64,000 nucleotides of DNA, taken from the NCBI GenBank assembly GCA_036275055.1, contig DASUEN010000083.1, forward strand, positions 19,187 to 83,186, given 5' to 3'. Each line of letters opens with the position of its first letter. The first letter of the stretch is position 1. Origin of the DNA: Thermoanaerobaculia bacterium (GTDB lineage Bacteria; Acidobacteriota; Thermoanaerobaculia; Multivoradales; UBA5704). Shown piece after piece: positions 5,343 to 23,536 of the stretch. Both the position numbers and the translations under genes were made by a program. Below the pieces are notes generated by a model. The model made no database searches and was not told the DNA's origin. It saw only the letters and a program-made list of their open reading frames with translations.

Positions 5343-5457
5343 GGTTGAAGCCTGTGGATCGCCGGACAAATCTTGCATGGCTACCCCGTCGGGGGTTGCT
5401 TTCCCCTGCCACTTCGCGCATGGTGGTAGAGGCATCGTCCCACGGGAGGACAAGATC

Positions 5458-5706
5458 ATGAGCGAAGAGCTGAAGACCTTTCTTCAGAGCCTCCGCACGA
5501 AACCTGAGCTGCTGGAGGAGCTGCGATCCTTGATTCGGGACCCGGACGCGGCGGTCCAGTGGGCTCGCGAGCAGGGATGTCACCTGACGCCGGAGGACGT
5601 CGCCGAGCTCCAGGGTGATGATGAGGAGCTCTCGGACGACGAGCTTGACAAGGTGGCTGGCGGCGACGACGGATGGCCGCCACCCCCGCCACCGCCGGGC
5701 CCTTAG
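5458..5706 (+). CDS. Nif11-like leader RiPP precursor, 82 aa, predicted core DDGWPPPPPPPGP
   Basis: ATG 5458 lies 7 nt after GGGAGGA. The N-terminus MSEELKTFLQSLRTKPELLEELRSL...AAVQWAREQGCHLTPEDV matches the Nif11-domain leader pattern. The leader ends ELSDDELDKVAGG (double-glycine site), followed by 13 residues and a stop. Confidence 0.75.
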   Translation: MSEELKTFLQSLRTKPELLEELRSLIRDPDAAVQWAREQGCHLTPEDVAELQGDDEELSDDELDKVAGGDDGWPPPPPPPGP

Positions 5707-5726
5707 GCTTCGTCGCGACGCAGGCA

Positions 5727-6749
5727 ATGGCATCCGTCCCATCCCCCGCCTATGACGACTGGCTGCGGGTGGTCAGACGGCATCTTACTCCGCCGCTTTG
5801 CAGTCTTTGGGCCCTGGATCGCCTGCACACTCTCGCCGCTCATCTCCCGGGAGATTGCCTGGGAGCCCTCGAAGCCCACCTGGGAAAGAGGGGCGGCGAC
5901 GTCGATCTGTCGATCCGTTTCACCGAGCCCGGCCAAGGCCGCCGAATGGCGGAGCAGCCCCTGCCCGCCCACCTGCGCAGCTTCCTCTCCCAATGGTCCC
6001 AGCCGGAAGGTCCGTTCTCCAGCATCCCCTGCATCTGGCTGGAGTTCGACCTGGATCGGCCGGTGGGGGACTTTCCGGTGCCATCGGTCTGCGCCCGGCT
6101 GCCGCGGGACGCCGACCTGGACTGGATCGTCGAGCTCTTGCTGCCGGCCCTGCATGGCGAGCCTCTGGGCGCAGCCCAGACCGGCCTGGTCCGGCGCTGC
6201 CACGGCGAAATCCCCGAGGAGGGCATCCTCCTCTACGTCTTCGGCCTGCTCTCCCGGCCGGGGAATCCGATACGGCTGGAGATCTTCGGGCTGGACCCGG
6301 CCGGCGCGGTTGCCTACCTGCGCCGCGTGGCGCCCCACGCCGCTCCTGCGCTGGCCGAGATCGCGCCGATCTTCGAAGGGATCGACAGGCCCCACCTGTC
6401 CCTCGACATGGGTGCTGAGATCCTGCCACGGGTGGGATTGGAAGGCTCCTTCGCCCGGCAGCGCGAACCCCGCTGGACGGAGCTCCTGGCCCGTCTCGTG
6501 GCCCGGGGCCTCTGTACGCGCGAGGAGATGGACGCCATCCTGGCCTGGCCGGGGTACGACACCCTCTGGACGGCTGCGGCGGACTGGCCCCTGGAGCAGG
6601 CCGGCGTGGGGGGATTCTGCGTGCGCAGCTTGAGCCACGTTAAAGTCGTCGCGCAACCGGGACGGGCGCCGGAGGCGAAGGTCTACTTGCTGGTCTCTTC
6701 TTTGGCCGGAGCCAAGTCGCCGGCAAGGCGGTCGGTCTTCTCGACGTAG
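5727..6749 (+). CDS. Hypothetical protein, candidate maturase of the Nif11 precursor (family not recognised)
   Basis: The ORF 5673..6749 has strong GC3 bias. Start placed at ATG 5727 (MASVPSPAYDDW), 21 nt after the precursor stop. I recognise no catalytic motif. See the finding on its repeated beta-hairpin/helix pattern. Confidence 0.55.
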   Translation: MASVPSPAYDDWLRVVRRHLTPPLCSLWALDRLHTLAAHLPGDCLGALEAHLGKRGGDVDLSIRFTEPGQGRRMAEQPLPAHLRSFLSQWSQPEGPFSSIPCIWLEFDLDRPVGDFPVPSVCARLPRDADLDWIVELLLPALHGEPLGAAQTGLVRRCHGEIPEEGILLYVFGLLSRPGNPIRLEIFGLDPAGAVAYLRRVAPHAAPALAEIAPIFEGIDRPHLSLDMGAEILPRVGLEGSFARQREPRWTELLARLVARGLCTREEMDAILAWPGYDTLWTAAADWPLEQAGVGGFCVRSLSHVKVVAQPGRAPEAKVYLLVSSLAGAKSPARRSVFST

Positions 6750-9700
6750 ACTCGCAGCCCCAGCTCCGCGAACGTCCGGCGAGCCTCGCCAAGTTGCCAC
6801 GCCGCCCCATTGGACCCTGCGCCGGCCGCCAGCGCCAGATCGAGCCGCGTGCGGGCCACCTCGAAGGGGGCCGCGATGGCTTTAAAGCTCTCCACGGCCT
6901 CGCCGAGCCACCTCTCCGCCTCTTCCCGGTCGCCGGCCGCGCGGGCGATGCGGCCCAGGGCGCGCTGGGCCATGCCGCTGCCGTAGCGGAACCGGACCTC
7001 TTCGGTGACGGCGAGCGCCTCGCGGGCGAGCACCCGGGCCTCGTCCGGGCGGTCCGAGAGGAGGCGGGCCTCGGCAAGAAAGGCGGAGAACCAGCCCAGG
7101 AGCTGCTTCATGCCGGCCCGGCGCAGCCGCTCCACGGAACCCTCCAAGGCCTCGGTCGCCTTCGGGAGATCCCCCTTCTCCAGATAGGCGTAGCCGAGGA
7201 AGCCCAGGGCTGCGGCAGTGTTGAGGGGGTCTTGGGCCCGCTCCAGCCCGCCCTTGCACTCCTCGATTCCCCGCTCGTACTCTCCCAGAGAAGCGTGGAA
7301 ATAGCCGGTGCTCCAGGATGGGTCGAGCCGGGGATCCTGGAGGGCGCGCCAGGCGGCCTCGGCCTTCTCCATCCTGCGGAACGCCTCGCCGAACTGTCCC
7401 AGGACGTAGTGATGGAATCCCGCCACCCAGTAGGCCTGCCCCTGCCACCAGCGGTCCGCGCTCCGCTCCAGCAGGTCGACCGCTTGCCGGCCATGCTCGA
7501 TCCCCTCCGAGAACCGGCCCGACCAGAAGGCATCGCGGCAGAGCACGTACCAGGCCCGTCCTTCCGTGATCGCGTCGCCGGAGCGCCGTGCCGCCTCGAT
7601 GGAGAGGCGGGCATTGGCCGCAGCCGCTTCCTGGTCGCCAAGGTAGCTATAGGTGTGGGCGAGCCAGAAGTGATAGCGGCCCGCGAGCGTTGAGTCCTGC
7701 AGACGGTCCAGGAGATCCCGCTCGGCGAGGAAAAGCTCCAGGGTCTCGGGGAAGCGGGCCAGGGGGAAGAGAGATTCGGCCAGGAGCAGGACCAGCTCCA
7801 TGCGCCGCCGGTCCGCCTCCGTCTGCGGCAGGCGCTCGCAGTGCGCCAGAGCCTCCCGCAGGGCCCTTTCCGCTTCAGCGTGGGCGTACCGGCGGGCCGC
7901 CTGAGCGGCGAAAAGGGCCAGATAGGAGACCGCTTTCCCGGCCTCGCCGGCCTCGGAGTAGTGATAGGCCAGAGCGTCGTAGACATCCTCCAGCCGCCCC
8001 GCGAAGAGCGACTCGAAAGCTTGCCCGGCAGCCGTATGCAAAGCCTGCCGCCGGCCCGTCAGCAGAGTTTGATAAACCGCCTCCTGGGTCAGGGCGTGTT
8101 TGAACAGGTACCGGGGCTCTTCCGCCGTCGGCTCCTCATAGAGGAATTCCCAACGCTTGAGGTCCGAGAGCAGAGATGGCAGATTGTCGACCTGCTCCCA
8201 GACCGCCGCCAGCAGGTTCAAGGGGAACTCCCGCCCAAGCACGGACGCCGTCTGAAGGAGCCGCTTGTGGTCGTCCGGCAGCCGGTCGATGCGGGCCATG
8301 ACCACTCCCTGGATCGTGTCGGGAACCGAGACGCCCGGATGCTCCAGTAAAGAACGAGCCAATTCCTCCAGGAAGAAGGGATTCCCCTCCGCTTTGCCGC
8401 GCACCTCGGCTACCAGATTCTCAGGGAGCTCGGCGCGGCGGAGCACGGCGCGGACGACCGCCTCGCTCTCCGCGTCTGTCAGCCGGGCGAGGGAGATCTG
8501 GGTGGCATTCGACTTCTCGATCCAGGGCGGCCGATAGCCGGAGCGGTAGGTGGCGATGAGCAGAACGTGAGCGGCGAACAGCCCTTCCACCAGCAGGGAG
8601 AGGAAATCCTCCGAGGTACGGTCCACCCAGTGGAGGTCCTCGATCTCCAGCACCACCAGCCGGCGGCGCGATTCGTTGAGGATAGCCTGCCGCAACAGCC
8701 GGAAAGTCCGGGTTTGCAAAGCCTGGGGGCTCAGCTCGGCGAGCGCCTCCGTGCCTTCCCGGATGCCGAAGAGATAAAGGACGTAGGGCAGAGCCTCCGC
8801 GACCTCCATCTCAGCCCGTCGCAGGCCGGCCATGACCTTGGCGACAACCGCAGCGGCGTCATCAGCCTCGCCGATCTCCCAGGCGTTGCGGAGCATGTAG
8901 AGGATGGGCAGGTAAGGTACGCCGCTGGTGTAGGAGAGGCACCGCCCCGCCAGGTGGAGGACCGGCCGGTTCCATAACCGCCGCCGGAATTCATAGACCA
9001 GCCGGGACTTTCCGGAGCCTGCTTCCGCCGCAATACCCACCACCTGCCCCTCCCCGGCCGCTGCCCGTTCGCGCAGCTCCTCGAGGATAGCCATCTCCCG
9101 CCGGCGGCCGACGAACGGCGAGCGGGCCGTGCTGCCGAGGACGGCATCCTCGGACTGGAGGAGGAGGCCCACACCCATCAGCCGGAACGCCCGCACCGGC
9201 GTCTCCTTCCCCTTGACCTGAAGCGGCGGTATCGCCTCCAGCCGGGCGGAGCCCTGAAGGAAGCGGCTCGTGTCCTCGCTCACCAGGATGGCCCCAGGCT
9301 CGGCGAGCTGTTGGAGCCGGGCGGCGAGATTGGTCGTATCGCCGATGGCCGTGTAGTCCCGGCGGAGCTGATCGCCGATGCCGCCCACCACCACCCAGCC
9401 GGTGTTGATCCCCATGCGGAACCGGAGCTCCACACCGCCGCGCTCCCCGAGCTCGGCGTGATGCTCCGCGAGCAGCTTCTGGAGGCCGAGAGCGGCGAGA
9501 GCCGCGCGGCGGGCGTGGTCCTCGTGGGCGATGGGAGCCCCGAACAGGGCCATGAAGCCATCCCCCAGGAACTGGTTGATGGTCCCCTCGTAGCGGTGGA
9601 CCTCGGAGAGGGCCAGCTCGAAGAACCGGTTGAGGAGGAGATGCATGGTCTCCGGCCCCAGCCGCTCGGCCAGGGAGGTCGAGCCGACGAGGTCGCAGAA

Positions 9701-10045
9701 GAGGACGGTGACCTGCTTGCGCTCCCCCTCAAGGGCGGATTTGGACTGGAGGACCTGGGCGGCGAGATGGGAGGGCGTATAGCTTTGGACTGGAGAAGCG
9801 AGGCGGGGTGCTTCAGGGGGCGGCGGAGGGGGGAGCGCCTCCGCCTTGGCCGCCCCGAGGGGGGAGCCGCACTCGCCGCAGAACTTGAAGCCGGGGAGGT
9901 TCTCAGTGCCGCACTGCGGGCAGAGGGCGGCCAGCTTCGCGCCGCACTGGCCGCAGAACTTCATGCCGGCGGGGTTGTCGAACTGGCAGTGTGGGCAATG
10001 CATGGGTTGTGGCGGTGGTTCGCAGGCCAGATTACCTTCACCCAC
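6683..10045 (-). CDS. Class III adenylate/guanylate cyclase fused to an AAA/STAND ATPase and TPR-like region, with N-terminal double zinc ribbon
   Basis: Zinc ribbons CPHCQF..CGQCG..CPQCG..CGECG. Cyclase core ERKQVTVLFCDLVGSTSLAE...FLGDGFMALFGAP...GINTGWVVVGG. P-loop AAEAGSGKSRL. Long helical-repeat C-terminus. The start is either GTG 10045 or ATG 10003 and is not resolved. Confidence 0.85.
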   Translation of the reverse strand: MGEGNLACEPPPQPMHCPHCQFDNPAGMKFCGQCGAKLAALCPQCGTENLPGFKFCGECGSPLGAAKAEALPPPPPPEAPRLASPVQSYTPSHLAAQVLQSKSALEGERKQVTVLFCDLVGSTSLAERLGPETMHLLLNRFFELALSEVHRYEGTINQFLGDGFMALFGAPIAHEDHARRAALAALGLQKLLAEHHAELGERGGVELRFRMGINTGWVVVGGIGDQLRRDYTAIGDTTNLAARLQQLAEPGAILVSEDTSRFLQGSARLEAIPPLQVKGKETPVRAFRLMGVGLLLQSEDAVLGSTARSPFVGRRREMAILEELRERAAAGEGQVVGIAAEAGSGKSRLVYEFRRRLWNRPVLHLAGRCLSYTSGVPYLPILYMLRNAWEIGEADDAAAVVAKVMAGLRRAEMEVAEALPYVLYLFGIREGTEALAELSPQALQTRTFRLLRQAILNESRRRLVVLEIEDLHWVDRTSEDFLSLLVEGLFAAHVLLIATYRSGYRPPWIEKSNATQISLARLTDAESEAVVRAVLRRAELPENLVAEVRGKAEGNPFFLEELARSLLEHPGVSVPDTIQGVVMARIDRLPDDHKRLLQTASVLGREFPLNLLAAVWEQVDNLPSLLSDLKRWEFLYEEPTAEEPRYLFKHALTQEAVYQTLLTGRRQALHTAAGQAFESLFAGRLEDVYDALAYHYSEAGEAGKAVSYLALFAAQAARRYAHAEAERALREALAHCERLPQTEADRRRMELVLLLAESLFPLARFPETLELFLAERDLLDRLQDSTLAGRYHFWLAHTYSYLGDQEAAAANARLSIEAARRSGDAITEGRAWYVLCRDAFWSGRFSEGIEHGRQAVDLLERSADRWWQGQAYWVAGFHHYVLGQFGEAFRRMEKAEAAWRALQDPRLDPSWSTGYFHASLGEYERGIEECKGGLERAQDPLNTAAALGFLGYAYLEKGDLPKATEALEGSVERLRRAGMKQLLGWFSAFLAEARLLSDRPDEARVLAREALAVTEEVRFRYGSGMAQRALGRIARAAGDREEAERWLGEAVESFKAIAAPFEVARTRLDLALAAGAGSNGAAWQLGEARRTFAELGLRVYVEKTDRLAGDLAPAKEETSK

Positions 10046-10154
10046 CAGTCGCCGTGCTCTTAGCAGTTAACGCCTAATCCTACACGCCAAAACGAAGCGT
10101 AGGAGAATTATACCCTTGGCCTTGCTCTGGAAGCCACGAATTTAGAACCAAGAA

Positions 10155-10185
10155 GTGGGCATTCGGCTACTCTCCTCATGCCCAC
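10155..10185 (-). terminator. Candidate intrinsic terminator downstream of the island precursor gene
   Basis: On the minus strand: GTGGGCAT, a 15-nt loop, ATGCCCAC, then TTCTTGGTTCT. It starts about 45 nt after the stop at 10231. Confidence 0.4.
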
Positions 10186-10230
10186 TATCTCCCGATGTGT
10201 GCAATAGCACGGCCTAATAACAGACAGTCA

Positions 10231-10443
10231 CTAGGTATCCCTAATGGAGTCAAACGCCTCCGACTGACCAATACCAGTTCTCTCAGGGTGGTCACAGTAC
10301 GTAATCACTCCTCCTCCTCCTCCATCTACTGGTTCCAGTTCCATACCCCCAGAAACGCCCTCAAGCGCCTCATCTGTCAACGGAGCCTGGAACAGTTCGT
10401 CATCAATGTTCTCCATCTTTGGATCCCTTGCCTCTAGCTCCAT
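10231..10443 (-). CDS. Double-glycine leader RiPP precursor (70 aa) of the ATP-grasp/SPASM island
   Basis: ATG at 10443 lies 6 nt after AAGGAG on the minus strand. The leader MELEARDPKMENIDDELFQAPLTDEALEGVSGG is followed by the core MELEPVDGGGGGVITYCDHPERTGIGQSEAFDSIRDT, which is rich in Thr/Ser and Asp/Glu (ATP-grasp cross-link partners) and has one Cys. Confidence 0.65.
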   Translation of the reverse strand: MELEARDPKMENIDDELFQAPLTDEALEGVSGGMELEPVDGGGGGVITYCDHPERTGIGQSEAFDSIRDT

Positions 10444-11046
10444 GAGTAACTCCTTTGCTCTGCGGCAGGTCCAATACCTGCGCACCTCCTACTCTAAGCC
10501 CCAGCGAACTCCCTGTCAATCCTAAAAAAGCGCTAAGGGAGGCGACCCGAGATCAGGACCTGCAAGACAGCGTTAAATATACTCTCATCGGAGATTTTTC
10601 GCCGTACTGGAAAACCTGCCACGAGCGTCGATCAACTCATCGGCCGGCTCGTCAGGAAAGCCGGCCGGAAACGCGTGCAGCACATCGGCGAAGGCCAGGC
10701 CTCCCCACCAAACGAAGCAAGCCAGCATCGCGGGGGAGCATTCCCCTGTCTTCTACTCTCTCTTGCTGCCACCTGAATCAGGACTACGGGGTGGAATTTG
10801 TCGAACTCGCTGAAGCCTCCTGCGGCGGCGAAGAGACTAAGACTGCTCACCAACTACTCCTCCGGTCTAGGGCCAGCATCGCCTCAGACACCAGGGTCGA
10901 CTCCTCGCGAGCCGTCAGGTCTATCGACTACGGGTAGTCTTAAACGCAAAGGGCAGAATGCCCTAGGCCCGCCGAAGCCTTGCCTCACCCCCAGGGGTGC
11001 ACGACTCCACGAGCCGCACGGTGGTGCGGATCACGGCTTTATGCTG

Positions 11047-11075
11047 TTGCCTGTACACGAATGTCCTAGTATGCT
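11047..11075 (+). promoter_or_regulatory. Candidate sigma70-type promoter upstream of the ATP-grasp gene
   Basis: TTGCCT (11047..11052), 17-nt spacer, TATGCT (11070..11075). This would give a 5' UTR of about 165 nt. Sequence match only. Confidence 0.25.
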
Positions 11076-11244
11076 ACGCTTATGTTCCGGAACTCACCGG
11101 CAGCACTGCTCCGGGAAAGTCAGCGTCTCGCTTTAGCACCGGCCACTGACTAGCCCCATGCCGGGTTCGGGATGGATTTACTTTAGCCAAGCAGGGCCGC
11201 TGTGATCGCCCGCAGCGTTCCGGCAAGGTCAATCCTGAGAGGAA

Positions 11245-12291
11245 ATGGCTACTATTATGTCACTGTATAATGCTCAAGAGGGCTCAATCCTAATTCTCAG
11301 CCAAGGTTCAGGAGAAACCACAACAGATATTGTCATGGAGTACCTGTTCCGCATGGGCCTATCGCCATTGCGCCTCAACGGAAGTGACCTTGATAGCCAG
11401 GGTAATTTTAGCATAGTTCTCAAGACGGGCGAAGCGGAGATAGATATCGAGGAATTCAAGGTTAATCTGCATCAGATTCAAGTAGTCTGGTTCCGCCGAT
11501 GGTCGGAGCGGCAGCCATTCCAAGGAATCAATATGCTTTCGGAAAATTCGCCAGAGAGTCACGATGTCTCCCAACGCGCCGCCGAACACCTTTCATCAGA
11601 ATTACGGAGGATCAGCTCTTTCCTTTTTTCCGAACTAAAACATGCAATATGGCTTAGCCACCCAAGCACTGCGAGCCCAGACAAGCTCAGAACATTAAAG
11701 CTTGCAGCAAGCGTCGGACTCTCAACACCCCACACATTAGTGACTACAAGCAGAAAACGGTTGCTACAATTCGCCCATCACCATCCCCTAATCACAAAGG
11801 CGATCGGTGATGTCGATTTTTTCCAGATAGGGTTCACCGCTCATCTAATGTACACCCAGGAACTTTCGGCAGACCTACTCGATGCACTTCCGGAAAAATT
11901 TTTCCCCTCATTATTTCAAGAAAAGCTAGAGAAACGGTATGAGCTAAGAATTTTCTACCTTGCCGGGAATTGCTATACATCAGCAATATTCTCGCAATCG
12001 GACCCCAAAACATCTATCGATTTTAGGAAATATAATCATAAAAAACCCAATAGGGTGGTGCCCTATAAATTAGAAGCTGACATGGAAGACAAAATTAGAC
12101 ACCTAATGGACTTATTAGAACTCGAAACAGGTTCACTCGATCTAATTAAGACAATCGACGGGCGCCTTGTCTTTCTCGAGGTTAACCCAATCGGCCAATT
12201 TGGGATGGTCTCTTCCCCTTGCAATTATCATCTAGAGCATAGGGTCGCCGAGTTCCTCGCGGAGAAAATCAACAATGCAAGACCTAGATAA
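11245..12291 (+). CDS. ATP-grasp ribosomal peptide maturase (grasp-with-spasm type)
   Basis: Matches to MdnC-like RiPP ATP-grasp ligases as I recall them: ILILSQGSGETTTDIVMEYL, DKLRTLKLAASVGLSTPHTLVTTS, FQEKLEKRYELRIFYLAGNCY, IDFRKYNHKKPNRVVPYKL, GSLDLIKTIDGRLVFLEVNPIGQFG. Confidence 0.85.
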   Translation: MATIMSLYNAQEGSILILSQGSGETTTDIVMEYLFRMGLSPLRLNGSDLDSQGNFSIVLKTGEAEIDIEEFKVNLHQIQVVWFRRWSERQPFQGINMLSENSPESHDVSQRAAEHLSSELRRISSFLFSELKHAIWLSHPSTASPDKLRTLKLAASVGLSTPHTLVTTSRKRLLQFAHHHPLITKAIGDVDFFQIGFTAHLMYTQELSADLLDALPEKFFPSLFQEKLEKRYELRIFYLAGNCYTSAIFSQSDPKTSIDFRKYNHKKPNRVVPYKLEADMEDKIRHLMDLLELETGSLDLIKTIDGRLVFLEVNPIGQFGMVSSPCNYHLEHRVAEFLAEKINNARPR

Positions 12292-13558
12292 TTTCCTAAG
12301 TCAACTGAAGGAAGATGCAAGTAATTGGACGCCTGTCTCCTTCCGGACAACGAGCAAATCGGAACTGGAAGCATTACCGCTGTCTCGTTATGCGGAGTCG
12401 ACGCGCTACAGATCGGCACAATACAGATGCTTCAACTTCCACAAGCCTATATCAAGAATTTTTAAAGCTATCCCTCGCATAAAAAGAGGAAGTGAACTCC
12501 CCGAAACAGAGCGCACCCGACCGACGATCAACTCGACAGCCCCAGTTACGGACGAGCAAATTTTTCTCCTCTTTGCGTGTTGTGTGCCTGTAATGGGAGC
12601 TCGCCGAAGCATAATCTGCGATCTTCAACGAGGCGCCTTCCAGTTGATACCTAACGGCTTAGCCGAGATCCTCAAGCAGTATAGAGGAAAGACTCTCGCC
12701 GCGATCAAAGACGCCTACAAGCACCAATACGATGCTCAAATTGAGCGATATTTTGAGTTCTTGATAGAACTTGAGCTTGGTTTCTGGTGCGACGATATCG
12801 ATGCTTTCTCCGAGATCGATTTTAGCTGGGACGAGCCGGAGCGTATAACTAATGCGCTCATTGATGTCGACGAGCGATCTGAGCACGACTTCGGTGTTAT
12901 CCTAAGAGATCTCGACGATCTAGGTTGTAAAGCGCTTCAGGTACGCTTTTATTCTGGCGGGCGAATTCTGCAACTCCGCGAACTACTTACGGCAGCCAAG
13001 GGTACCTGCTTGCGCTCAATTGAGCTAGTCGCACCATTTCACAGTGAAGACACCGATCAAGACTACATCCGGATGTACCTCGACTTTCCGCGCATCAGCC
13101 GCCTAATAATTCATTCCGCTCCCGATGATCGTGAACTCAAAACGGAACGCTCTCATGTACCGCTTATCTATAGAAGAATGATAATTGACTCCTCCTCTTG
13201 CTGCGGGGAGGTGCACCCCTCGTACTTCGTCACGCAGATCTCTACCTTTTCCGAGGCTCAAACCTTTAACACCTGCCTGAACCATAAGATTTCTATCGAT
13301 AGATGTGGAGAGATTAAAAATTGCCCCTCTTTACCGTACTCGTGTGGAAACATCCGGGACACTTCTCTACATAGTGCTTTAGCTCAGAGCGACTTCAAAC
13401 AACTGTGGGCTATAAATAAAGACCAAATCGAGATATGTAAGGATTGTGAGTTTCGGTATATCTGCGTCGATTGCCGGGCATACTTATCACGCCCGGAAGA
13501 TCGCTTCTCAAAGCCTGCGAAGTGTACTTATGATCCGTATTCTGCCCAATGGCGATAA
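12275..13558 (+). CDS. SPASM-domain peptide maturase partner of the ATP-grasp enzyme, lacking a canonical radical-SAM CX3CX2C motif
   Basis: The ATG overlaps the ATP-grasp stop by 17 nt. The C-terminal Cys-rich SPASM pattern is CLNHKISIDRCGEIKNCPSLPYSCGNI ... ICKDCEFRYICVDCRAY ... KCTYDPY. The N-terminal half has only ACCVPVMGARRSIIC. Confidence 0.8.
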   Translation: MQDLDNFLSQLKEDASNWTPVSFRTTSKSELEALPLSRYAESTRYRSAQYRCFNFHKPISRIFKAIPRIKRGSELPETERTRPTINSTAPVTDEQIFLLFACCVPVMGARRSIICDLQRGAFQLIPNGLAEILKQYRGKTLAAIKDAYKHQYDAQIERYFEFLIELELGFWCDDIDAFSEIDFSWDEPERITNALIDVDERSEHDFGVILRDLDDLGCKALQVRFYSGGRILQLRELLTAAKGTCLRSIELVAPFHSEDTDQDYIRMYLDFPRISRLIIHSAPDDRELKTERSHVPLIYRRMIIDSSSCCGEVHPSYFVTQISTFSEAQTFNTCLNHKISIDRCGEIKNCPSLPYSCGNIRDTSLHSALAQSDFKQLWAINKDQIEICKDCEFRYICVDCRAYLSRPEDRFSKPAKCTYDPYSAQWR

Positions 13559-13821
13559 ATGTAAACTCGACCTTCCTCAACGTCGGCGGTGCTTACAACC
13601 AATACAGCCGTTTAAGTAATTTGTAGACAGAGCGGAGCGGCGATCTCGCAGCCACCGAGTGACAGAAACAGAGAGGCTTTTCCAGCCCAAACAGTGCCCG
13701 ATCGATGCAGAGCCAAATGAACCTATCCTCGAGACGATCAAGCTGGGTCAGACCCTGGCACGCAACAATTGCTTGGCCAAACCGCTCGCTGGAAAGCAGT
13801 CTGCGTCCAGCGTCGATGAGG

Positions 13822-14436: not shown

Positions 14437-14621
14437 CCGCTTAGAGAGGCACCACCCCCGCCAAGCGGAGGACGGGGCGGCCCCACAGCCGGCGCGCCTA
14501 ACAGGCCGTGCTACATGGCCATGTAGTTCCACTCCGGCGAGCCCGGCCCGCACCCCCGAGGAGGGTGTCCGCCCGAATCTGTCGAGGCGAAGAAGTCCCG
14601 ATTTAATTCTTTATGAAAAAT

Positions 14622-14650
14622 TTGCTTTTGGCTTCTCGTTCGTGTAAGGT
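14622..14650 (+). promoter_or_regulatory. Candidate promoter of the LanB-like gene in a short AT-rich patch
   Basis: TTGCTT (14622..14627), 17-nt spacer, TAAGGT (14645..14650). GAGGG (14658..14662) precedes ATG 14668. Sequence match only. Confidence 0.3.
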
Positions 14651-14667
14651 GCAAATCGAGGGTCGAA

Positions 14668-17487
14668 ATGACGATGGGTTTTTCTTTGATTACACGCTCC
14701 GACGACGCACTGGGCGAAGGCTTCCGGGAAGACTCGGCCTCTCCTGCGGGCCTGTCCGCCCCCCCGGTGGTCGTACGGATCGCGGGCCTCCCTGCACAGG
14801 CTCTCGAGCCCCTCACGAGCCCCTCCTGCGTCGCGCTGCTGCAAGCCCGCGAGCCTCTCAAGGAGGAGATCGGAGACGCCAGGCGATCGATGGCCGAGGC
14901 GATCGGCAACGCCCTTCCGAGGTTCGACGCTACGATCCGCGGCTTTTTGCTCACGATAAAAAGGAACTGCTTCAACGGTCGTGCCATCGAGCCGCTCCGC
15001 AGGAAAGCGGAGTGGGCCGAGCTTCTCCAGGTCTCGCCGGACCTGGCGGAGCGCATCGTGGCCCTCGAAGAGCAGCTCGACGAGAACGACCGTGCGCTCG
15101 CCACCCTTTACGAGAGCGAGCTCACTCGCGAACGGCGCCACGTCCTGACGCTGGCGGAGGATCGCCGTTTTCTCCGTGGCATTGCCCTGGGAAGACCCGG
15201 CCTGGTGGAGAAAATCCGCGCTCGGGCCCCTTCTCTCGCCGCTTCGGGATCTCTGAGAAGTCCGGAGAAGTGGGAACAGAGCCTCCTGCGTTTCGTGACC
15301 CGGGCCGCGGCGAAGCTGTCCGCCAACTCGACGCTCACCGCCTACGGTCTGGGGAGCATTCAAGACTCCCCGTCCCCGGTGGGCTTACGGTTCGCCGGCT
15401 CTCCTCAACGGGAGGTTTCCCTGGTGCGCGTCAACCGCCCGGAGCTCGAGCAGCTCCAGGCGCTCCTGCTGCGGCACCCGGCGGTGCGAGAGCGCGCTCT
15501 CGTCGCCTGGAACGACAGCCTCGAGGAGCTCGAGCCCGGCCAATATCGTTTCCTGCGCGATGGCCACTGGAAGCTCGAGCCCGGAGCGGAAGAATTTCAC
15601 TTCGTTCTGCCCGCGAGGGTCAAGGTGACGCTTTCCAACGCGGTGCTGGGCACTGCCCGAGAGGCCCTGCGAGTGTGTACGCTCCGCTACGACGCCCTCT
15701 TGGCGCTGCTGGAAGACCGGCACGGGATTTCGGCCGGCGAAACGACCGCTCCGCCGATTCGGAGTGCCCTCGACCAACTCGTCGATCTCGGGCTCCTCAT
15801 CCTCATGCCGCCCTGGCCGACTCACGAAGCTCGGTTGGAGCAGCGGATCGGACGGTTCCTTCGCGCCCTGCCCGGCGAGCCTACCCTGCGCGCGACGGCA
15901 GACGCCCTGGACGAGCTTCTGGCACTCGAAGCGGGCTTCGCTTCGGCTCCTCGGCCCGAGAGCTCGGTCGCCGCCATGGAAGACGCCTTCTCGCGGCTTC
16001 TCAACACGGTCGTCCATCTGGCCGGGCACGAGGGTCCTCTCGCCACCCGGGCACACTTCTTCGAAGACGTGCTCCTGGAAGCAGCAGTCAGCTCCGGCGA
16101 CGATCGGGGAATCTTCCAAATCGCGTCACAGATGGCTCAGGAGATCCTTCAGACCGCACGGCTGGTCTCGCGCTTTGCCGGCCTGTTCAACGTTCGCCAC
16201 GACGTCCTGCACACCCTGGCCGCTTGGTGGCGGGAGCATGAGCCGAGGCGGCGAGAGGTCCCTTTCACCGAGATTGCTCGCGGGTTCGCCCCTCTTTGGA
16301 AGCAGTTCTTTCAATTCCACAAGACCGCGAACGAGGATGCCCTCAATACCTTCGACCCCCTGCACACGGACTCGCTCGAAAGGCTGCGGGAGAGGCGGGC
16401 AACGCTTCTCGCCGAATCCCGGGAGTTGCTGAGCACCTCGCCAACGAAGGACTTCCTGTCGTCGCGACAGCTCGCGGAGATGGTGGAGCCTCTACCCCGC
16501 CGCTATGCCCCCCAACTGGGCACGTGCGTCTTCATCCAACCCGTGGATGCCGAGGGTAACTCTTGGGTGCTCAACCGCCTACACGAAGGCACGGGGCGGT
16601 ATCTGAGCCGCGTCACTCCGATCCTGGAAGGGCCTCGGCAGCAGCGCTTCCTCAACCACCTCATCGCGAGATCGGTGGTCGAGTTGGAGGGAGAGGAAGC
16701 GGATCTCCTCGAGGTCAAGTATCCGTGGAGCCACCTGGTGAGAGCTCACCCGCCTCAGGCGGCAAAGGTCTTGGACCTCCGGGGACTGCACCTCGGCCTG
16801 CCGCCAGAGCGGAGGGTCGGCCTCGGCGATCTCACGATCCAGGCGGATCTCGATTCCGAAACCTTCCGATTGATCGACCCTTCGGGGCGCCGCGTGCTTC
16901 CTGTCAGCCTGAGCACCTTGTCCGACGCCGGGCTCCCGAACCTCCTGCGCTTTCTTCTGGCGTTCGGACCGGGCGAGACCCGTGCCGTCTTTCCGCTCAA
17001 CTCCTGGGAGGGCGAGGAGGATTTCAGATCCTTCCACCGCTTGACCTGCGGCACGCTGGTCCTGCGCCGCCATCGTTGGACGATCGGTATCGAGAAGCTC
17101 CGCGGTGACCTGGAAGCTCTTTCCGGCTTGCGAGCTTACGTTGCCATCCACGATTGGCGCCATCGGCTGGGCCTGCCGGCGGTGGGCTTCTACTACGAGC
17201 TCTCGTACCAGGGGATTCTCAAGCCGCAGTACGTCGATTTCCGCTCGCCGTCGCTGTGCCGGCTTTTCGTCGCCAGCCTGCAAAAGATGGCAACCGGGCA
17301 CCTGACCCTCGAGGAAGCCCTGCCGTCGCCCGCCGACTTCCCCTTCGACGCTTCGATGAACCGCCGAGGCTTCGAGCTTTTGATCGATAGTTTGGCGATC
17401 CGTACCGTGAACGGAAATTGCTCCGCCTGGGTACCGGACCGCAACCGAGAGAGTCTCTCTCTCAGAAGGGAAGTACAACATGTCTAA
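14668..17487 (+). CDS. Lantibiotic dehydratase, N-terminal (glutamylation) part only: split LanB, 939 aa
   Basis: N-terminal PPVVVRIAGLPAQALEPL and C-terminal FYYELSYQGILKPQYVDFRSPSLCRLF resemble Lant_dehydr_N family proteins. The size matches thiopeptide-type split dehydratases. There is no elimination domain at the C-terminus. Confidence 0.7.
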   Translation: MTMGFSLITRSDDALGEGFREDSASPAGLSAPPVVVRIAGLPAQALEPLTSPSCVALLQAREPLKEEIGDARRSMAEAIGNALPRFDATIRGFLLTIKRNCFNGRAIEPLRRKAEWAELLQVSPDLAERIVALEEQLDENDRALATLYESELTRERRHVLTLAEDRRFLRGIALGRPGLVEKIRARAPSLAASGSLRSPEKWEQSLLRFVTRAAAKLSANSTLTAYGLGSIQDSPSPVGLRFAGSPQREVSLVRVNRPELEQLQALLLRHPAVRERALVAWNDSLEELEPGQYRFLRDGHWKLEPGAEEFHFVLPARVKVTLSNAVLGTAREALRVCTLRYDALLALLEDRHGISAGETTAPPIRSALDQLVDLGLLILMPPWPTHEARLEQRIGRFLRALPGEPTLRATADALDELLALEAGFASAPRPESSVAAMEDAFSRLLNTVVHLAGHEGPLATRAHFFEDVLLEAAVSSGDDRGIFQIASQMAQEILQTARLVSRFAGLFNVRHDVLHTLAAWWREHEPRRREVPFTEIARGFAPLWKQFFQFHKTANEDALNTFDPLHTDSLERLRERRATLLAESRELLSTSPTKDFLSSRQLAEMVEPLPRRYAPQLGTCVFIQPVDAEGNSWVLNRLHEGTGRYLSRVTPILEGPRQQRFLNHLIARSVVELEGEEADLLEVKYPWSHLVRAHPPQAAKVLDLRGLHLGLPPERRVGLGDLTIQADLDSETFRLIDPSGRRVLPVSLSTLSDAGLPNLLRFLLAFGPGETRAVFPLNSWEGEEDFRSFHRLTCGTLVLRRHRWTIGIEKLRGDLEALSGLRAYVAIHDWRHRLGLPAVGFYYELSYQGILKPQYVDFRSPSLCRLFVASLQKMATGHLTLEEALPSPADFPFDASMNRRGFELLIDSLAIRTVNGNCSAWVPDRNRESLSLRREVQHV

Positions 17488-17701
17488 GCCCAAGGATGCG
17501 AACCTGGAGATCGAGGCCCTTTCCGACGACGAGCTCGAGTCAGTCAGCGGAGGCAATACCACCACCAACTCGGGCGGCACCTGCACCACCAACGCGGGCG
17601 GCGTCTGCAGCACCGCTATCAACGGCGGCTGCACCACCAACACGGGTGGCACCTGCACCAACCTCCCAGCCCAACCCGCACAACAACTGAACGCCGACTG
17701 A
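17480..17701 (+). CDS. RiPP precursor, 73 aa, double-glycine leader plus Thr/Cys/Asn/Gly-rich core
   Basis: Leader MSKPKDANLEIEALSDDELESVSGG, then core NTTTNSGGTCTTNAGGVCSTAINGGCTTNTGGTCTNLPAQPAQQLNAD. The ATG overlaps the LanB-like stop by 8 nt. Confidence 0.75.
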   Translation: MSKPKDANLEIEALSDDELESVSGGNTTTNSGGTCTTNAGGVCSTAINGGCTTNTGGTCTNLPAQPAQQLNAD

Positions 17702-17715
17702 TGAATTGACCAGCC

Positions 17716-17733
17716 TGCCCTCGATCGTGAGGG
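17716..17733 (+). terminator. Weak hairpin just after the precursor gene (possible attenuator or RNA-stabilising structure)
   Basis: GCCCTC, loop GATCGT, GAGGGC, 15 nt after the stop. There is no U-tract, so this is not a strong terminator. Confidence 0.25.
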
Positions 17734-17766
17734 CGGGTTGGTCCCGTCCGCTAGAGAGGTTACGCG

Positions 17767-23532: not shown

Positions 23533-23536
23533 GGCC

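What the first reader, a model, noticed from the sequence alone, without database searches (positions are those of the whole stretch)
10046..13821. Low-GC island carrying a grasp-with-spasm RiPP cassette inserted against the cyclase start codon
G+C drops from about 43/60 per line in the flanks to 21-25/60 inside the island. Inside are an MdnC-like ATP-grasp ligase, a translationally coupled SPASM protein (17-nt overlap) and an oppositely oriented GG-leader precursor. There is about 0.8 kb (10.45-11.24 kb) with no convincing gene. I found no integrase, transposase, tRNA or direct repeats at the edges. The left edge abuts the start codon of the 1120-aa cyclase gene, so that gene's native promoter must now lie within foreign DNA. 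As far as I know, products of the ATP-grasp plus SPASM pairing have not been characterised.
Basis: partly seen in the sequence, partly recalled or inferred. Interest (0 to 1): 0.7.

Follow-up and report, generated by a model that had tools for sequence, protein, structure and literature searches.

The report
Foreign graspetide cassette in swap slot
A stretch of unusually low-G+C DNA in a soil Acidobacteriota genome carries a horizontally acquired three-gene kit for making a cross-linked peptide, and it sits in a slot of a bacteriocin-export locus that holds different peptide-modifying genes in each of seven related genomes.

Summary
The island is real. Window 10004-13821 is 50% G+C against 69% elsewhere. 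Its genes have GC3 of 0.48-0.51 against 0.85-0.93 for host genes, and the tetranucleotide z-score reaches 14.7. It carries a grasp-with-spasm RiPP cassette: an ATP-grasp ligase (TIGR04192, above cut-off), an overlapping SPASM protein (TIGR04193, above cut-off) and an oppositely oriented double-glycine-leader precursor. A conserved homologue in another locus validates the precursor.

Foreign origin is supported, but a Bacteroidota donor is not. The ligase groups (bootstrap 93/100) with two other ~50%-GC cassettes inside an Acidobacteriota/Gemmatimonadota radiation.

The "insertion against the cyclase start" is better described as one edge of a hypervariable slot. In seven related Thermoanaerobaculia genomes (cyclase 85-100% identical), a conserved NHLP/Nif11 bacteriocin exporter and the conserved cyclase flank 4.5-10 kb of RiPP genes that differ in every genome. 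Homology stops at the cyclase ATG (10003, not GTG 10045). The closest sister holds a different grasp-with-spasm cassette (47% identical ligase) in the same position, in the opposite orientation.

The SPASM protein lacks the radical-SAM cysteine motif, and a small accessory protein is fused to its N-terminus.

This is a known in-silico system in a new setting, and its product remains uncharacterised.

The parts
10004..13821 (.). Low-GC island: the segment with no flank-level homology to sister genomes. Only weak 66-74% DNA matches to the sister's own cassette lie inside it. The G+C drop runs from about 10060 to about 13860.
   Evidence: GC 0.505 against 0.686. Homology to L086 and L088 stops at 10004/10003 and resumes at 13824. 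Tetranucleotide z reaches 14.7.
10231..10443 (-). Precursor peptide gene (70 aa): MELEARDPKMENIDDELFQAPLTDEALEGVSGG / MELEPVDGGGGG / VITYCDHPERTGIGQSEAFDSIRDT. It has the family leader motif and double-glycine sites. An AAGGAG Shine-Dalgarno sequence precedes the ATG.
   Evidence: The homologous precursor in L005 (tblastn 54% identity over 68 residues, E 1e-15) shares a near-identical core C-terminus, TGIGQSEAFDSIRD. The leader motif M[EK]x[IL]DxxLFxP[IL]...GG is shared with precursors in most related loci examined (L005-L007, L095, L098), in looser form in L086. It is the only such ORF in the window. It matches no known precursor HMM.
10491..10519 (-). Promoter-like site (TTGACA-17-TAGAGT) upstream of the precursor gene.
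   Evidence: Consensus scan, 10 of 12 matches. This is a pattern match only; the number of such sites in the region is no more than chance.
10444..11256 (.). Non-coding spacer between the divergently oriented precursor gene and the enzyme operon.
   Evidence: ORFs have flat GC1/GC2/GC3 and no family hits. The 160-aa ORF has 0 hits in 1.84 billion representatives. No similarity to any fetched locus. No Rfam match. Its 3' 300 nt (10945-11244) show no excess RNA folding.
11257..12291 (+). gwsG, the grasp-with-spasm ATP-grasp peptide ligase (344 aa from the NCBI start; an alternative ATG lies at 11245).
   Evidence: TIGR04192 268 bits against a cut-off of 230. PF21068 MvdD pre-ATP-grasp domain. 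P0001 is 100% identical and is named this way by NCBI.
12275..13558 (+). gwsS, the SPASM-domain maturase (427 aa), overlapping gwsG by 17 nt. Residues 1 to about 65 are a fused small accessory protein. Then come an RRE-like beta/alpha module (about 96-165), an alpha/beta domain and a 7-Cys SPASM domain. There is no CX3CX2C motif.
   Evidence: TIGR04193 320 bits against a cut-off of 175. Invariant cysteines from alignment A3. No PF04055 hit in 0 of 47 family members. AF2 model and Foldseek hits to CteB, SuiB and RRE proteins. N-terminal fusion.
13559..13821 (.). 3' spacer of the island with no convincing ORF.
   Evidence: No GG-leader ORF. No similarity to other loci except the identical Logan contig L173.
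13822..14553 (-). Frameshifted host-type remnant: an ABC-transporter C-terminal piece plus a truncated cNMP-binding gene (a second copy of cyc_nuc_ocin), and a 52-nt cyclase fragment at 14444-14495. It marks the right edge of the island.
   Evidence: The reading frame breaks across ORFs. cNMP_binding and TIGR03896 hits. 81-91% DNA identity to intact L086 and L088 genes, and orthologous to L086 cNMP2.
6683..10003 (-). Conserved adenylate/guanylate cyclase-AAA-TPR regulator (1106 aa). Its start codon is one fixed edge of the variable slot.
   Evidence: Pfam and NCBIfam hits. Orthologues are 85-89% identical in six sister genomes. The alignment is conserved only from the ATG onward.
14668..20088 (.). 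Rest of the variable slot: a divergent LanB-N-like 939-aa protein, a JmjC protein (414 aa) and a thiopeptide-type Lant_dehydr_C protein (361 aa). Composition is intermediate (GC3 0.73-0.78).
   Evidence: (the 939-aa protein is 32.6% identical to the L088 Lant_dehydr_N protein).
20085..20627 (-). cyc_nuc_ocin cNMP-binding protein. Its stop codon is the other fixed edge of the variable slot.
   Evidence: TIGR03896 160.5 bits, just under the 161.05 cut-off. Homology with the sisters checked at DNA level (L086, L088) ends at 20085/20084.
20638..28538 (-). Conserved NHLP-type bacteriocin exporter: ABC2 (20638-23646), C39-peptidase ABC1 (23537-25753), HlyD (25753-27036) and a TolC-like protein (26991-28538). 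It is the likely leader-cleaving exporter for the island's GG-leader peptide.
   Evidence: TIGR03797 938 bits, TIGR03796 1107 bits and TIGR03794 369 bits, all above their cut-offs. TIGR01844 (TolC family) scores 85 bits, below its 225-bit cut-off. The functional link to the island is inferred.
5377..5706 (+). Nif11-like leader RiPP precursor of the resident locus, on the conserved side of the cyclase.
   Evidence: TIGR03798 50 bits against a cut-off of 32. A small gene lies at the syntenic position in the sisters; Pfam Nif11 hits in L086, L091 and L092.

Best explanation
The island is a horizontally acquired grasp-with-spasm RiPP cassette: a GG-leader precursor, the ATP-grasp ligase GwsG, and the SPASM protein GwsS with a fused small accessory protein. 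It occupies the cyclase-proximal end of a hypervariable 'maturase slot' in an NHLP/Nif11-type bacteriocin locus of a Thermoanaerobaculia (Acidobacteriota) genome.

The slot is bounded by the stop codon of the cyc_nuc_ocin gene and the start codon of a conserved cyclase-AAA-TPR regulator. It holds different RiPP-modifying genes in each of the seven related genomes examined.

The cassette came from a ~50%-GC lineage within the Acidobacteriota-associated branch of the family, not from Bacteroidota.

I infer that it arrived by recombination anchored in the conserved flanking genes rather than through an integrase or transposase. The slot is littered with fragments of those flanking genes.

Inferred mechanism of the product:
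1. The 70-aa precursor is recognised through its conserved leader (ME.ID.ELF..PL).
2. GwsG forms ATP-dependent side-chain ester cross-links between Thr/Ser and Asp/Glu in the core VITYCDHPERTGIGQSEAFDSIRDT. The core has no Lys, so no lactam can form.
3. GwsS either presents the peptide or adds a second, Fe-S-dependent modification, possibly at the single Cys. GwsS has an RRE-like module and a 7-Cys SPASM domain but no radical-SAM cluster motif.
4. The resident C39-peptidase ABC exporter cleaves after the double glycine and secretes the peptide.
For: Shown:
- Family membership of both enzymes above curated cut-offs.
- The precursor is conserved with L005, and the leader motif recurs, with variations, across the related loci examined.
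- GC3 is 0.48-0.51 against 0.85-0.93 in host genes, and tetranucleotide z reaches 14.7.
- The same-kind cassettes in most Acidobacteriota genomes are host-like (GC3 0.83-0.97), so low G+C is not a property of the genes themselves.
- The ligase groups with two other ~50%-GC cassettes, L005 and L093 (bootstrap 93/100). This group lies inside a 100/100 clade nested in an Acidobacteriota/Gemmatimonadota radiation, apart from Bacteroidota. It never groups with the sister genome's cassette (0/100).
- L005 shows the related cassette next to a high-GC aminotransferase-like gene, a different site in another host.
- Six sister genomes with 85-89% identical cyclases share the exporter, cyc_nuc_ocin, cyclase, Nif11 precursor and histidine kinase. 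Each has different slot contents: LanB sets, LanM, rSAM plus LanC, MacB/GT, and another grasp-with-spasm cassette.
- All sister slots have depressed G+C, 0.54-0.65 against 0.635-0.70 in the flanking conserved DNA.
- Homology stops at the cyclase ATG, and upstream DNA is unalignable among six genomes.
- Fragments of the cyclase, ABC and cNMP genes lie inside the slots of the window and of L086.
- The right junction is reproduced at 100% identity in an independent Logan assembly of SRR25158407.
- The exporter is identified by TIGR03796, TIGR03797 and TIGR03794 above cut-off.
- GwsS lacks CX3CX2C and keeps the SPASM cysteines. No member hits PF04055. The model resembles CteB, SuiB and RRE proteins.
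Against: - No donor genome was found. The nearest relatives are only 61-62% identical and come from 2-3 kb contigs.
- No mobility gene, repeat or conserved end defines how the cassette moved.
- A sliding identity plot of the cyclase gives no recombination tract.
- The sister genomes are only about 85% identical in DNA, so the acquisition cannot be dated, and 'recent' rests on composition alone.
- The left junction has no independent assembly support.
- The closest sister has the same kind of cassette at the same place next to the same duplicated cNMP gene. An ancestral cassette followed by replacement cannot be told apart from two independent insertions.
- All chemistry, the role of GwsS and the use of the resident exporter are inferred. 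The exporter lies 6-12 kb away, whereas some related cassettes (L001) carry their own.
- The RRE assignment rests on Foldseek hits without residue ranges.
Confidence: 0.78

Rival explanations
1. A discrete genomic island from a low-GC Bacteroidota-like donor inserted once, directly against the cyclase start codon, and displaced the cyclase's native promoter.
For: - The low G+C and the absence of the cassette in five sisters.
- The published view that this ATP-grasp branch is 'highly specific' for Bacteroidetes (PMC8939145).
- gwsG occurs on Bacteroidota plasmids and on P. gingivalis ICEs (preprint 10.64898/2026.08.04.741601).
Against: - Bacteroidota ligases are the most distant in the family, at 35-44% identity and on a separate part of the tree.
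- The Bacteroidota plasmid copies are about 32-34% identical.
- No sister genome conserves any sequence upstream of the cyclase ATG, so there is no 'native promoter' state to displace.
- The site is a slot that varies in all seven genomes.
Confidence: 0.07
2. Vertical inheritance. The common ancestor of this genome and L086 already had a grasp-with-spasm cassette between the duplicated cNMP gene and the cyclase. The two cassettes are orthologues that diverged quickly and were inverted in one lineage, and the low G+C is an old, maintained feature.
For: - Same kind of cassette at the same position, with the same truncated second cNMP copy on its far side in both genomes.
- Both GwsS proteins share the N-terminal fusion.
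- Both cassettes are lower in G+C than their hosts.
Against: - The ligases are 47% and the SPASM proteins 51% identical, against 88% for the adjacent cyclase and 74-92% for the cNMP proteins.
- In the tree the two ligases never pair (0/100). Cassettes from many other genomes separate them.
- The precursor cores are unrelated.
Confidence: 0.1
3. Assembly artefact. A low-GC fragment from another organism in the metagenome was joined into a high-GC MAG contig.
For: - The source is a metagenome-assembled genome.
- The compositional break is abrupt.
- The left junction has no second assembly.
Against: - The segment is internal, with host DNA on both sides.
- An independent Logan contig matches 11935-14020 at 100% and crosses the right junction into the host remnant.
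- L005 shows a related low-GC cassette joined to high-GC DNA in another sample.
- L086 has a cassette of the same kind at the same site.
Confidence: 0.04

Closest known systems
Grasp-with-spasm system (NCBIfam TIGR04192 GwsG / TIGR04193 GwsS; ATP-grasp 'branch 5' of Makarova et al. 2022, PMC8939145; probably graspetide 'group 14' of Carter et al. 2026, PMC13097080 - my equation, not stated in the paper)
   Same: - Both enzymes pass the equivalog cut-offs.
- The genes are adjacent and overlap in the order G then S.
- The precursor is small, has a GG leader and has a Thr/Ser/Asp/Glu-rich core containing Cys.
- The product is uncharacterised in the literature I could search.
   Different: - It lies in Acidobacteriota, whereas the paper calls the branch Bacteroidetes-specific. 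My scans nevertheless found 594 loci, with the best matches all Acidobacteriota.
- The precursor matches none of the known precursor HMMs and is inverted relative to the enzymes.
- The small protein that is a separate gene between gwsG and gwsS elsewhere is fused to GwsS here.
- The cassette has no transporter of its own.
- Its composition is foreign to its host.
Microviridin-type graspetide ligases (MdnC/MvdD, MdnB/MvdC)
   Same: It has the ATP-grasp fold with the MvdD-type pre-ATP-grasp domain (PF21068). The expected chemistry is side-chain ester cross-links on a ribosomal peptide.
   Different: - Scores are far below the MvdC/MvdD equivalog cut-offs (157 against 425; 124 against 475).
- The leader has LFxPL rather than the microviridin PFFARFL motif (the latter from my own knowledge).
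- It is paired with a SPASM protein.
- The core has no Lys, so no lactam is possible.
RRE-containing radical-SAM/SPASM RiPP maturases CteB (PDB 5WHY/5WGG) and SuiB (5V1Q/5V1S/5V1T)
   Same: These are the best structural matches to the GwsS model (Foldseek E 5e-7 to 8e-4). The domain order is the same: peptide-binding module, alpha/beta domain, then a C-terminal SPASM domain with a 7-Cys pattern.
   Different: - GwsS has no CX3CX2C radical-SAM cluster motif.
- No family member hits Pfam Radical_SAM.
- TM-scores are low (0.24-0.27).
- There is no sequence-level PDB match.
NHLP/Nif11 bacteriocin systems (TIGR03794/03796/03797/03896/03798; described by Haft and co-workers, recalled from my own knowledge)
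   Same: The resident frame has all the marker families: HlyD, C39-ABC1, ABC2, the cNMP-binding cyc_nuc_ocin protein and a Nif11-leader precursor.
   Different: The grasp-with-spasm cassette is not a described component of that system. Here it appears as interchangeable cargo between the exporter and a cyclase-type regulator.
Low-GC variable loci exchanged by recombination in conserved flanking genes (for example O-antigen and capsule loci; own knowledge), and ICE-borne gwsG/gwsS in Porphyromonas gingivalis (preprint 10.64898/2026.08.04.741601)
   Same: - Conserved flanks.
- Cargo that differs between relatives and has lower G+C than the genome.
- No mobility genes inside the locus.
- The preprint shows that grasp-with-spasm cassettes do travel horizontally.
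   Different: The cargo here is RiPP maturases. Recombination in the flanks is inferred from scars, not shown. No ICE, integrase or conjugation gene is nearby.

Membership tests
Grasp-with-spasm RiPP system | ATP-grasp ligase matching TIGR04192 above its curated cut-off | tested here: met
   268 bits against a cut-off of 230, full-length match 1-318/318.
Grasp-with-spasm RiPP system | SPASM-domain maturase matching TIGR04193 above its curated cut-off | tested here: met
   320.4 bits against a cut-off of 175.
Grasp-with-spasm RiPP system | The two genes are adjacent and co-oriented, ligase first | tested here: met
   17-nt overlap at 12275-12291. The same order, with overlaps of 11-17 nt, is seen in L001, L005 and the P0005 contig; L086 has the same order, also overlapping.
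Grasp-with-spasm RiPP system | A nearby small precursor that matches a described precursor model (TIGR04139, TIGR04149, PF14406) | tested here: not met
   No NCBIfam hit at E <= 10 apart from a chance-level 12-bit match to a lactococcin G-beta model (E 0.17), and no Pfam hit at E <= 0.01. The precursor is instead supported by the L005 homologue and a shared leader motif.
Grasp-with-spasm RiPP system | Dedicated peptidase-ABC/HlyD export genes next to the cassette (common, not universal) | tested here: not met
   None lie inside 10004-13821. The nearest is the resident NHLP exporter at 20.6-28.5 kb. L001 has its own.
Radical-SAM/SPASM peptide maturases | CX3CX2C motif binding the SAM-cleaving 4Fe-4S cluster | tested here: not met
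   The motif is absent. The only invariant N-terminal cysteines are C103 and C115, in FACCxPVxGARRSxICD.
Radical-SAM/SPASM peptide maturases | Match to Pfam Radical_SAM (PF04055) | tested here: not met
   0 of 47 family members hit it at E <= 1. SPASM (PF13186) is hit by 21 of 47.
Radical-SAM/SPASM peptide maturases | C-terminal SPASM domain with the 7-cysteine pattern | tested here: met
   C334-x10-G-x4-C350, C388-x2-C391-x5-C397-x2-C400 and C417 are all invariant. PF13186 scores 21.9 bits against a cut-off of 21.5.
Radical-SAM/SPASM peptide maturases | Overall fold like solved members, including an N-terminal RRE peptide-binding domain | tested here: inconclusive
   The top Foldseek hits are CteB and SuiB, and RRE proteins (TbiB1, 6JX3_B) match about 82-90 aligned positions with target-normalised TM 0.63-0.70. 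However, whole-protein TM is only 0.24-0.27, mean pLDDT is 69.7, and no residue ranges are given.
Microviridin-type (MvdC/MvdD) graspetide ligases | Equivalog-level match to TIGR04185 or TIGR04184 | tested here: not met
   157 bits against a cut-off of 425, and 124 bits against 475. It is related, not a member.
Horizontally acquired genomic island | Composition and codon usage unlike the host | tested here: met
   GC 0.50 against 0.69; GC3 0.48-0.51 against 0.85-0.93; tetranucleotide z up to 14.7.
Horizontally acquired genomic island | Absent from, or different in, close relatives at the same site | tested here: met
   Five sisters have other genes there. One has a 47%-identical cassette in the opposite orientation.
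Horizontally acquired genomic island | Gene phylogeny that conflicts with the host relationship | tested here: met
   The window ligase groups with L005 and L093 (93/100) and never with the sister genome's ligase (0/100). This is an NJ tree only.
Horizontally acquired genomic island | Mobility hallmarks: integrase or transposase, tRNA target, flanking direct repeats | tested here: not met
   No tRNA in 64 kb. Only short chance-level repeats. No family hits for any gap ORF. No viral relatives.
NHLP/Nif11 bacteriocin export locus (the resident frame) | HlyD, C39-ABC1, ABC2, cyc_nuc_ocin and a Nif11-leader precursor together | tested here: met
   TIGR03794 369 bits, TIGR03796 1107, TIGR03797 938 and TIGR03798 50, all above cut-off. 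TIGR03896 scores 160.5 against 161.05, just below.

The most novel reading that the evidence does not exclude
The conserved exporter and the conserved cyclase regulator of this Thermoanaerobaculia NHLP/Nif11 locus form a standing 'docking station'. Whole RiPP maturation cassettes from distant, lower-GC lineages are repeatedly swapped into it, with boundaries fixed at a stop codon and a start codon. A dedicated or strongly favoured exchange mechanism would explain why two unrelated grasp-with-spasm cassettes landed at the same position.

In addition, GwsS would not be a radical-SAM enzyme. It would be an Fe-S, RRE-bearing partner protein, with the small 'LPL-like' protein fused to it, that the ATP-grasp ligase needs. 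This would be a second kind of partner-dependent graspetide synthesis.
Probability: 0.3. Interest if true: 0.65.

Novelty: new member of a known kind. Interest (0 to 1): 0.45.

Why it matters
- It gives a clean natural example of a RiPP cassette that was plugged into a pre-existing export and regulation frame. That is the same modular logic people try to engineer.
- The grasp-with-spasm family is abundant in soil Acidobacteriota, yet the main comparative study describes its ATP-grasp branch as Bacteroidetes-specific.
- The seven-genome comparison defines a compact hypervariable slot. Mining it could yield new maturase-precursor sets.
- The cassette is minimal: one precursor and two enzymes with no transporter. 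Its SPASM protein lacks the radical-SAM motif and carries a fused accessory module. That makes it a convenient construct for finally testing what the ATP-grasp plus SPASM pairing makes.

Tried and rejected
- **Source contig.** Exact-sequence look-ups of the window's ligase (both starts) found no contig. Only the SPASM protein led to an independent contig.
- **RNA in the island.** An Rfam scan of 9500-15000 at E <= 1 found nothing. RNA folding of the last 300 nt of the spacer (10945-11244) and of the precursor-cyclase spacer gave z = -0.3 and -1.4, so no structured RNA is indicated.
- **Decayed gene in the 0.8-kb gap.** I found no family hits, no blastn or credible tblastx similarity to 170+ related loci or to the rest of the window, and 0 hits for its longest ORF in 1.84 billion representatives. 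I rejected the idea.
- **Element ends.** The repeat search gave only 12-28 nt chance-level matches. No sequence is conserved between the island ends here and in L005.
- **Carriers.** There are no relatives in viral contigs. Plasmid copies exist only in Bacteroidota at about 32-34% identity.
- **Recombination tract.** Sliding identity of the cyclase gene against six sisters is flat, giving no signal.
- **Cyclase association.** The cyclase is not generally associated with grasp-with-spasm cassettes. Only the L021/L086 contig, among the 91 loci held at that point, has it adjacent.
- **PDB by sequence.** Neither the SPASM protein nor its family profile found a meaningful match.
- **Second precursor.** I considered one downstream of gwsS, as in L001, L094 and L098, but found none.

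Full report

The window is a high-GC contig, 67.5% overall. A sliding profile drops from 0.66-0.73 to 0.39-0.60 between about 10.06 and 13.86 kb. The segment 10046-13821 is 50.4% G+C against 68.6% for the rest. In 60-base lines it averages 30 G+C (minimum 20) against 40.5 in the flanks.

The anomaly is far beyond background. The tetranucleotide distance from the rest of the window reaches z = 14.7. The two enzyme genes have GC3 of 0.48 and 0.51, where host genes have 0.85-0.93.

An independent Logan assembly of run SRR25158407 reproduces 11935-14020 at 100% identity and crosses the right junction. This argues against a chimeric join, at least on that side.

**2. What is inside the island?**

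- **Ligase.** The gene at 11257-12291 (NCBI start; an alternative ATG lies at 11245) passes the equivalog model for the grasp-with-spasm ATP-grasp ligase (TIGR04192, 268 bits, cut-off 230). It falls well short of the microviridin MvdC/MvdD models.
- **SPASM protein.** The gene at 12275-13558 passes TIGR04193 (320 bits, cut-off 175) and overlaps the ligase gene by 17 nt.
- **Precursor.** The small ORF on the opposite strand (10231-10443, 70 aa) matches no precursor model. It is nevertheless validated by comparison. A 2.8-kb metagenome contig (L005), whose ligase is 62% identical, encodes MGRDEKKSPMEQIDSELFEAPLADKELEEAAGGLVATYCHNEEATGIGQSEAFDSIRDS. That sequence shares the leader and the core C-terminus TGIGQSEAFDSIRD with the window peptide.
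- **Leader motif.** The motif M[EK]x[IL]DxxLFxP[IL]...GG recurs in predicted precursors of most related loci examined (L005, L006, L007, L095, L098); L001 and L094 carry looser versions and keep the double glycine. L086 has a looser version of it. It occurs only once in the whole window.
- **Precursor orientation.** In L005, L086 and L095 the precursor lies upstream of the enzymes on the same strand. In L001, L094, L098, L006 and L007 it lies downstream on the same strand. Only here is it inverted.
- **The 0.8-kb gap.** The stretch between the precursor and the ligase is non-coding by every test I could run.
- **Mobility signals.** No tRNA, no meaningful terminal repeat and no mobility-gene remnant in the island's non-genic stretches was found.

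**3. Where does the cassette come from?**

NCBI names the 100%-identical proteins as coming from a Thermoanaerobaculia MAG, class Thermoanaerobaculia, phylum Acidobacteriota.

A scan of one genome per species found 594 related loci. The best matches (45-51% identity) are all Acidobacteriota. Gemmatimonadota follow, and Bacteroidota are the most distant at 35-44%. The main comparative paper calls this ATP-grasp branch highly specific for Bacteroidetes and does not mention Acidobacteria (PMC8939145).

In most Acidobacteriota genomes the cassette has host-like composition, with GC3 of 0.83-0.97. Low G+C is therefore not intrinsic to these genes.

The window's closest relatives are L005 (62% identity, GC3 0.55) and L093 (61%, GC3 0.51). 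In L005 the cassette abuts a high-GC (GC3 0.89) aminotransferase-like gene, which is a different site in a different host.

In an NJ tree these three form a clade (93/100). That clade sits inside a 100/100 clade with two high-GC copies (L001, L094), nested among Acidobacteriota and Gemmatimonadota sequences and apart from Bacteroidota.

The SPASM protein's nearest relatives come from the same contigs as the ligase's, so the pair moves as a unit.

My reading is that a ~50%-GC sub-lineage of the Acidobacteriota-associated branch was delivered independently into at least two high-GC genomes. The donor itself is not sampled.

**4. What is the site?**

The cyclase has many orthologues at 70-89% identity. 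I fetched six sister loci: L086/L087, L088/L089, L090, L091, L092 and L174.

All share a frame in this order:
- C39-peptidase ABC transporter
- second ABC transporter
- 181-182-aa cNMP-binding protein
- a variable region of 4.5-9.3 kb in the sisters (10.1 kb in the window)
- cyclase
- a ~340-aa protein
- a small precursor gene at the position of the window's Nif11-type precursor (Pfam Nif11 hits in three of the sisters)
- an RsbRD-type histidine kinase
- a polyketide-cyclase-like protein

In the window this frame is an NHLP/Nif11 bacteriocin export system by curated models: TIGR03794, TIGR03796, TIGR03797 and TIGR03798 score above cut-off, and TIGR03896 scores 160.5 against 161.05.

The variable region differs in every genome:
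- split LanB genes plus an S41 peptidase (L088/L089)
- MacB, NicX-like and glycosyltransferase genes (L090)
- LanB-N (L091)
- radical SAM, LanC-like, LanB-C and MacB (L092)
- LanM (L174)
- radical SAM, AraC, LanB-C and a grasp-with-spasm cassette (L086)
- LanB-like, JmjC, LanB-C and the island (the window)

Every sister's variable region is lower in G+C than the flanking conserved DNA, 0.54-0.65 against 0.635-0.70.

DNA homology between the window and its sisters ends at the cNMP gene's stop codon (20085/20084) and at the cyclase ATG (10003/10004). A six-genome alignment shows nothing conserved upstream of that ATG.

The likely cyclase start is therefore ATG 10003 (1106 aa, as annotated by NCBI), not GTG 10045. 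'Abutting the start codon' is a property of the slot, not of this one insertion.

**5. The sister with the same kind of cassette.**

L086 is the same contig as L021, a Thermoanaerobaculum sp. MAG with a cyclase 88% identical to the window's. It has an intact precursor, ligase and SPASM cassette directly upstream of the cyclase, on the cyclase's strand, at G+C 0.50-0.60.

On its far side lies a second, N-terminally truncated cNMP gene. This is orthologous to the frameshifted remnant at 13822-14553 in the window. The duplicated cNMP gene therefore predates the split of the two genomes.

Even so, the two cassettes differ sharply:
- The ligases are 47% identical and the SPASM proteins 51%.
- The precursor cores are unrelated.
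- The enzyme genes are in opposite orientation relative to the flanks.
- The ligases never pair in bootstraps.

Two explanations remain. An ancestral cassette was replaced, or two cassettes entered the same position independently. Simple vertical descent is unlikely.

Both slots contain fragments of the conserved flank genes. The window has an ABC C-terminal piece at 14246-14436 and a 52-nt cyclase piece at 14444-14495. L086 has larger cyclase fragments. Such scars are what repeated recombination anchored in the flanks would leave. This step is inferred: a sliding identity plot of the cyclase gave no tract.

**6. How it most likely works.**

Shown:
- The ligase is a graspetide-type ATP-grasp enzyme with the MvdD pre-ATP-grasp domain.
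- The precursor has a conserved leader and double-glycine sites.
- The 25-residue core has Thr, Ser, Asp and Glu, one Cys and no Lys.

Inferred from the established chemistry of graspetide ligases:
- GwsG makes Thr/Ser-to-Asp/Glu side-chain esters.

GwsS is unusual:
- It keeps the seven SPASM cysteines but has no CX3CX2C motif.
- No member of the family hits Pfam Radical_SAM.
- An AlphaFold model (mean pLDDT 69.7, high over residues 96-390) is closest to the RRE-containing radical-SAM/SPASM maturases CteB and SuiB. Part of it matches stand-alone RRE leader-binding proteins.
- The beta-beta-beta(-beta)-alpha-alpha-alpha stretch at 96-165 is my candidate for that RRE module. This is an inference.

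Its first ~65 residues are homologous to a separate small ORF between gwsG and gwsS in main-clade Thermoanaerobaculia (L098) and in Aquimarina (L054). The shared motif is PVx[YF]R...AES..Y...Y.C..F[HR]KPISR, loosened in L001 and the Aquimarina protein; only P, V, A, S and K-P-x-S are invariant across all six. This small ORF is probably the 'LPL family' of PMC8939145, here fused to GwsS.

I therefore favour GwsS as a peptide-presenting, Fe-S-containing partner, or as a non-radical-SAM modifier acting with the ligase. Partner-dependent graspetide synthesis has a recent precedent with unrelated partners (PMC13097080).

The cassette has no transporter, whereas L001 has MacB, C39-ABC and HlyD genes beside it. 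The resident C39-ABC exporter 10-16 kb away is the obvious candidate for leader cleavage and export. This too is inferred.

Three sequence features near the precursor and cyclase are pattern matches only:
- A promoter-like site precedes the precursor gene.
- A Shine-Dalgarno sequence precedes the precursor ATG (read directly).
- A perfect TATAAT lies 104 nt upstream of the cyclase ATG, inside island DNA (read directly).

**7. Novelty and verdict.**

The cassette is a bona fide member of a family defined in silico and named by NCBI's annotation pipeline. In the literature I could search, its product has not been characterised.

What is new here:
- the Acidobacteriota setting
- the foreign composition
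- the inverted precursor
- the fused accessory module
- the cassette's place in a seven-genome hypervariable maturase slot with boundaries at a stop codon and a start codon

It is wrong about the donor, and the single-insertion picture is too simple.

Interest is moderate. This is not a new kind of system, but it is a tidy, testable case, and the slot is worth mining.

Noticed in passing
window 12275-12470 (GwsS residues 1 to about 65); L098 about 11000-11204; L054 10988-11221: The N-terminal extension of this GwsS is homologous to a separate 68-77-aa ORF that lies between gwsG and gwsS in other Thermoanaerobaculia and in Aquimarina. The shared motif is PVx[YF]R...AES..Y...Y.C..F[HR]KPISR, and BLASTP gives E 1e-4. 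The ORF is probably the 'LPL family' of Makarova 2022, here fused to the SPASM protein. L086, L001 and L005 share the fusion.
   Followed up: partly
window 13822-14553 (-): A decayed second copy of the 'ABC C-terminus plus cNMP-binding gene' pair, with at least two frameshifts. A 52-nt piece of the cyclase coding sequence lies at 14444-14495. The cNMP part is orthologous to an intact truncated copy in sister L086 (6572-7066).
   Followed up: yes
window 10004-20084 compared with L086, L088, L090, L091, L092 and L174: The whole interval between the cyc_nuc_ocin stop codon and the cyclase start codon is a hypervariable RiPP-gene slot. All seven genomes have different cargo, and all cargo has lower G+C than the conserved flanking DNA.
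   Followed up: yes
window 14668-20139: The other slot genes have intermediate GC3 (0.73-0.78 against about 0.9). They are a 939-aa protein with no Pfam hit that is 32.6% identical to a Lant_dehydr_N protein of L088, a JmjC-domain protein and a thiopeptide-type Lant_dehydr_C protein. This may be an older acquisition. No precursor was identified for them.
   Followed up: partly
window 5377-5706 (+): A Nif11-like leader RiPP precursor (TIGR03798, 50 bits) on the conserved side of the cyclase. It sits next to a conserved ~340-358-aa protein (5673-6749) that has no family hit. The sisters have small genes at the same position.
   Followed up: partly
window 10107-10112 (- strand): A perfect TATAAT hexamer lies 104 nt upstream of the cyclase ATG (10003), inside island DNA. 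The precursor gene is also co-oriented with the cyclase, so read-through from the precursor promoter is possible.
   Followed up: no
window 9866-9997: A 57-nt direct repeat (75% identical, spacing 75 nt) inside the 5' end of the cyclase gene. It corresponds to the two zinc-ribbon units of the protein and is not an element boundary.
   Followed up: partly
L086 4171-5296 and 6235-6299: The sister's slot contains partial duplicates of its own cyclase gene, one called as a 203-aa Guanylate_cyc protein. This is further scarring by flank-derived sequence.
   Followed up: partly
contig of P0005 (JGI 3300050821, 15.1 kb; no DNA available): A cassette 58% identical in the ligase lies about 3.2 kb from a phage-type integrase and directly downstream of a DUF222 protein. 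This is the only hint of a classical mobile element near any close relative.
   Followed up: no
(family-wide): Grasp-with-spasm ligases are very common in soil Acidobacteriota and also occur in Gemmatimonadota. There were 1127 protein clusters at E <= 1e-10 and 594 species-representative loci. The main comparative paper, in contrast, describes the branch as Bacteroidetes-specific.
   Followed up: partly
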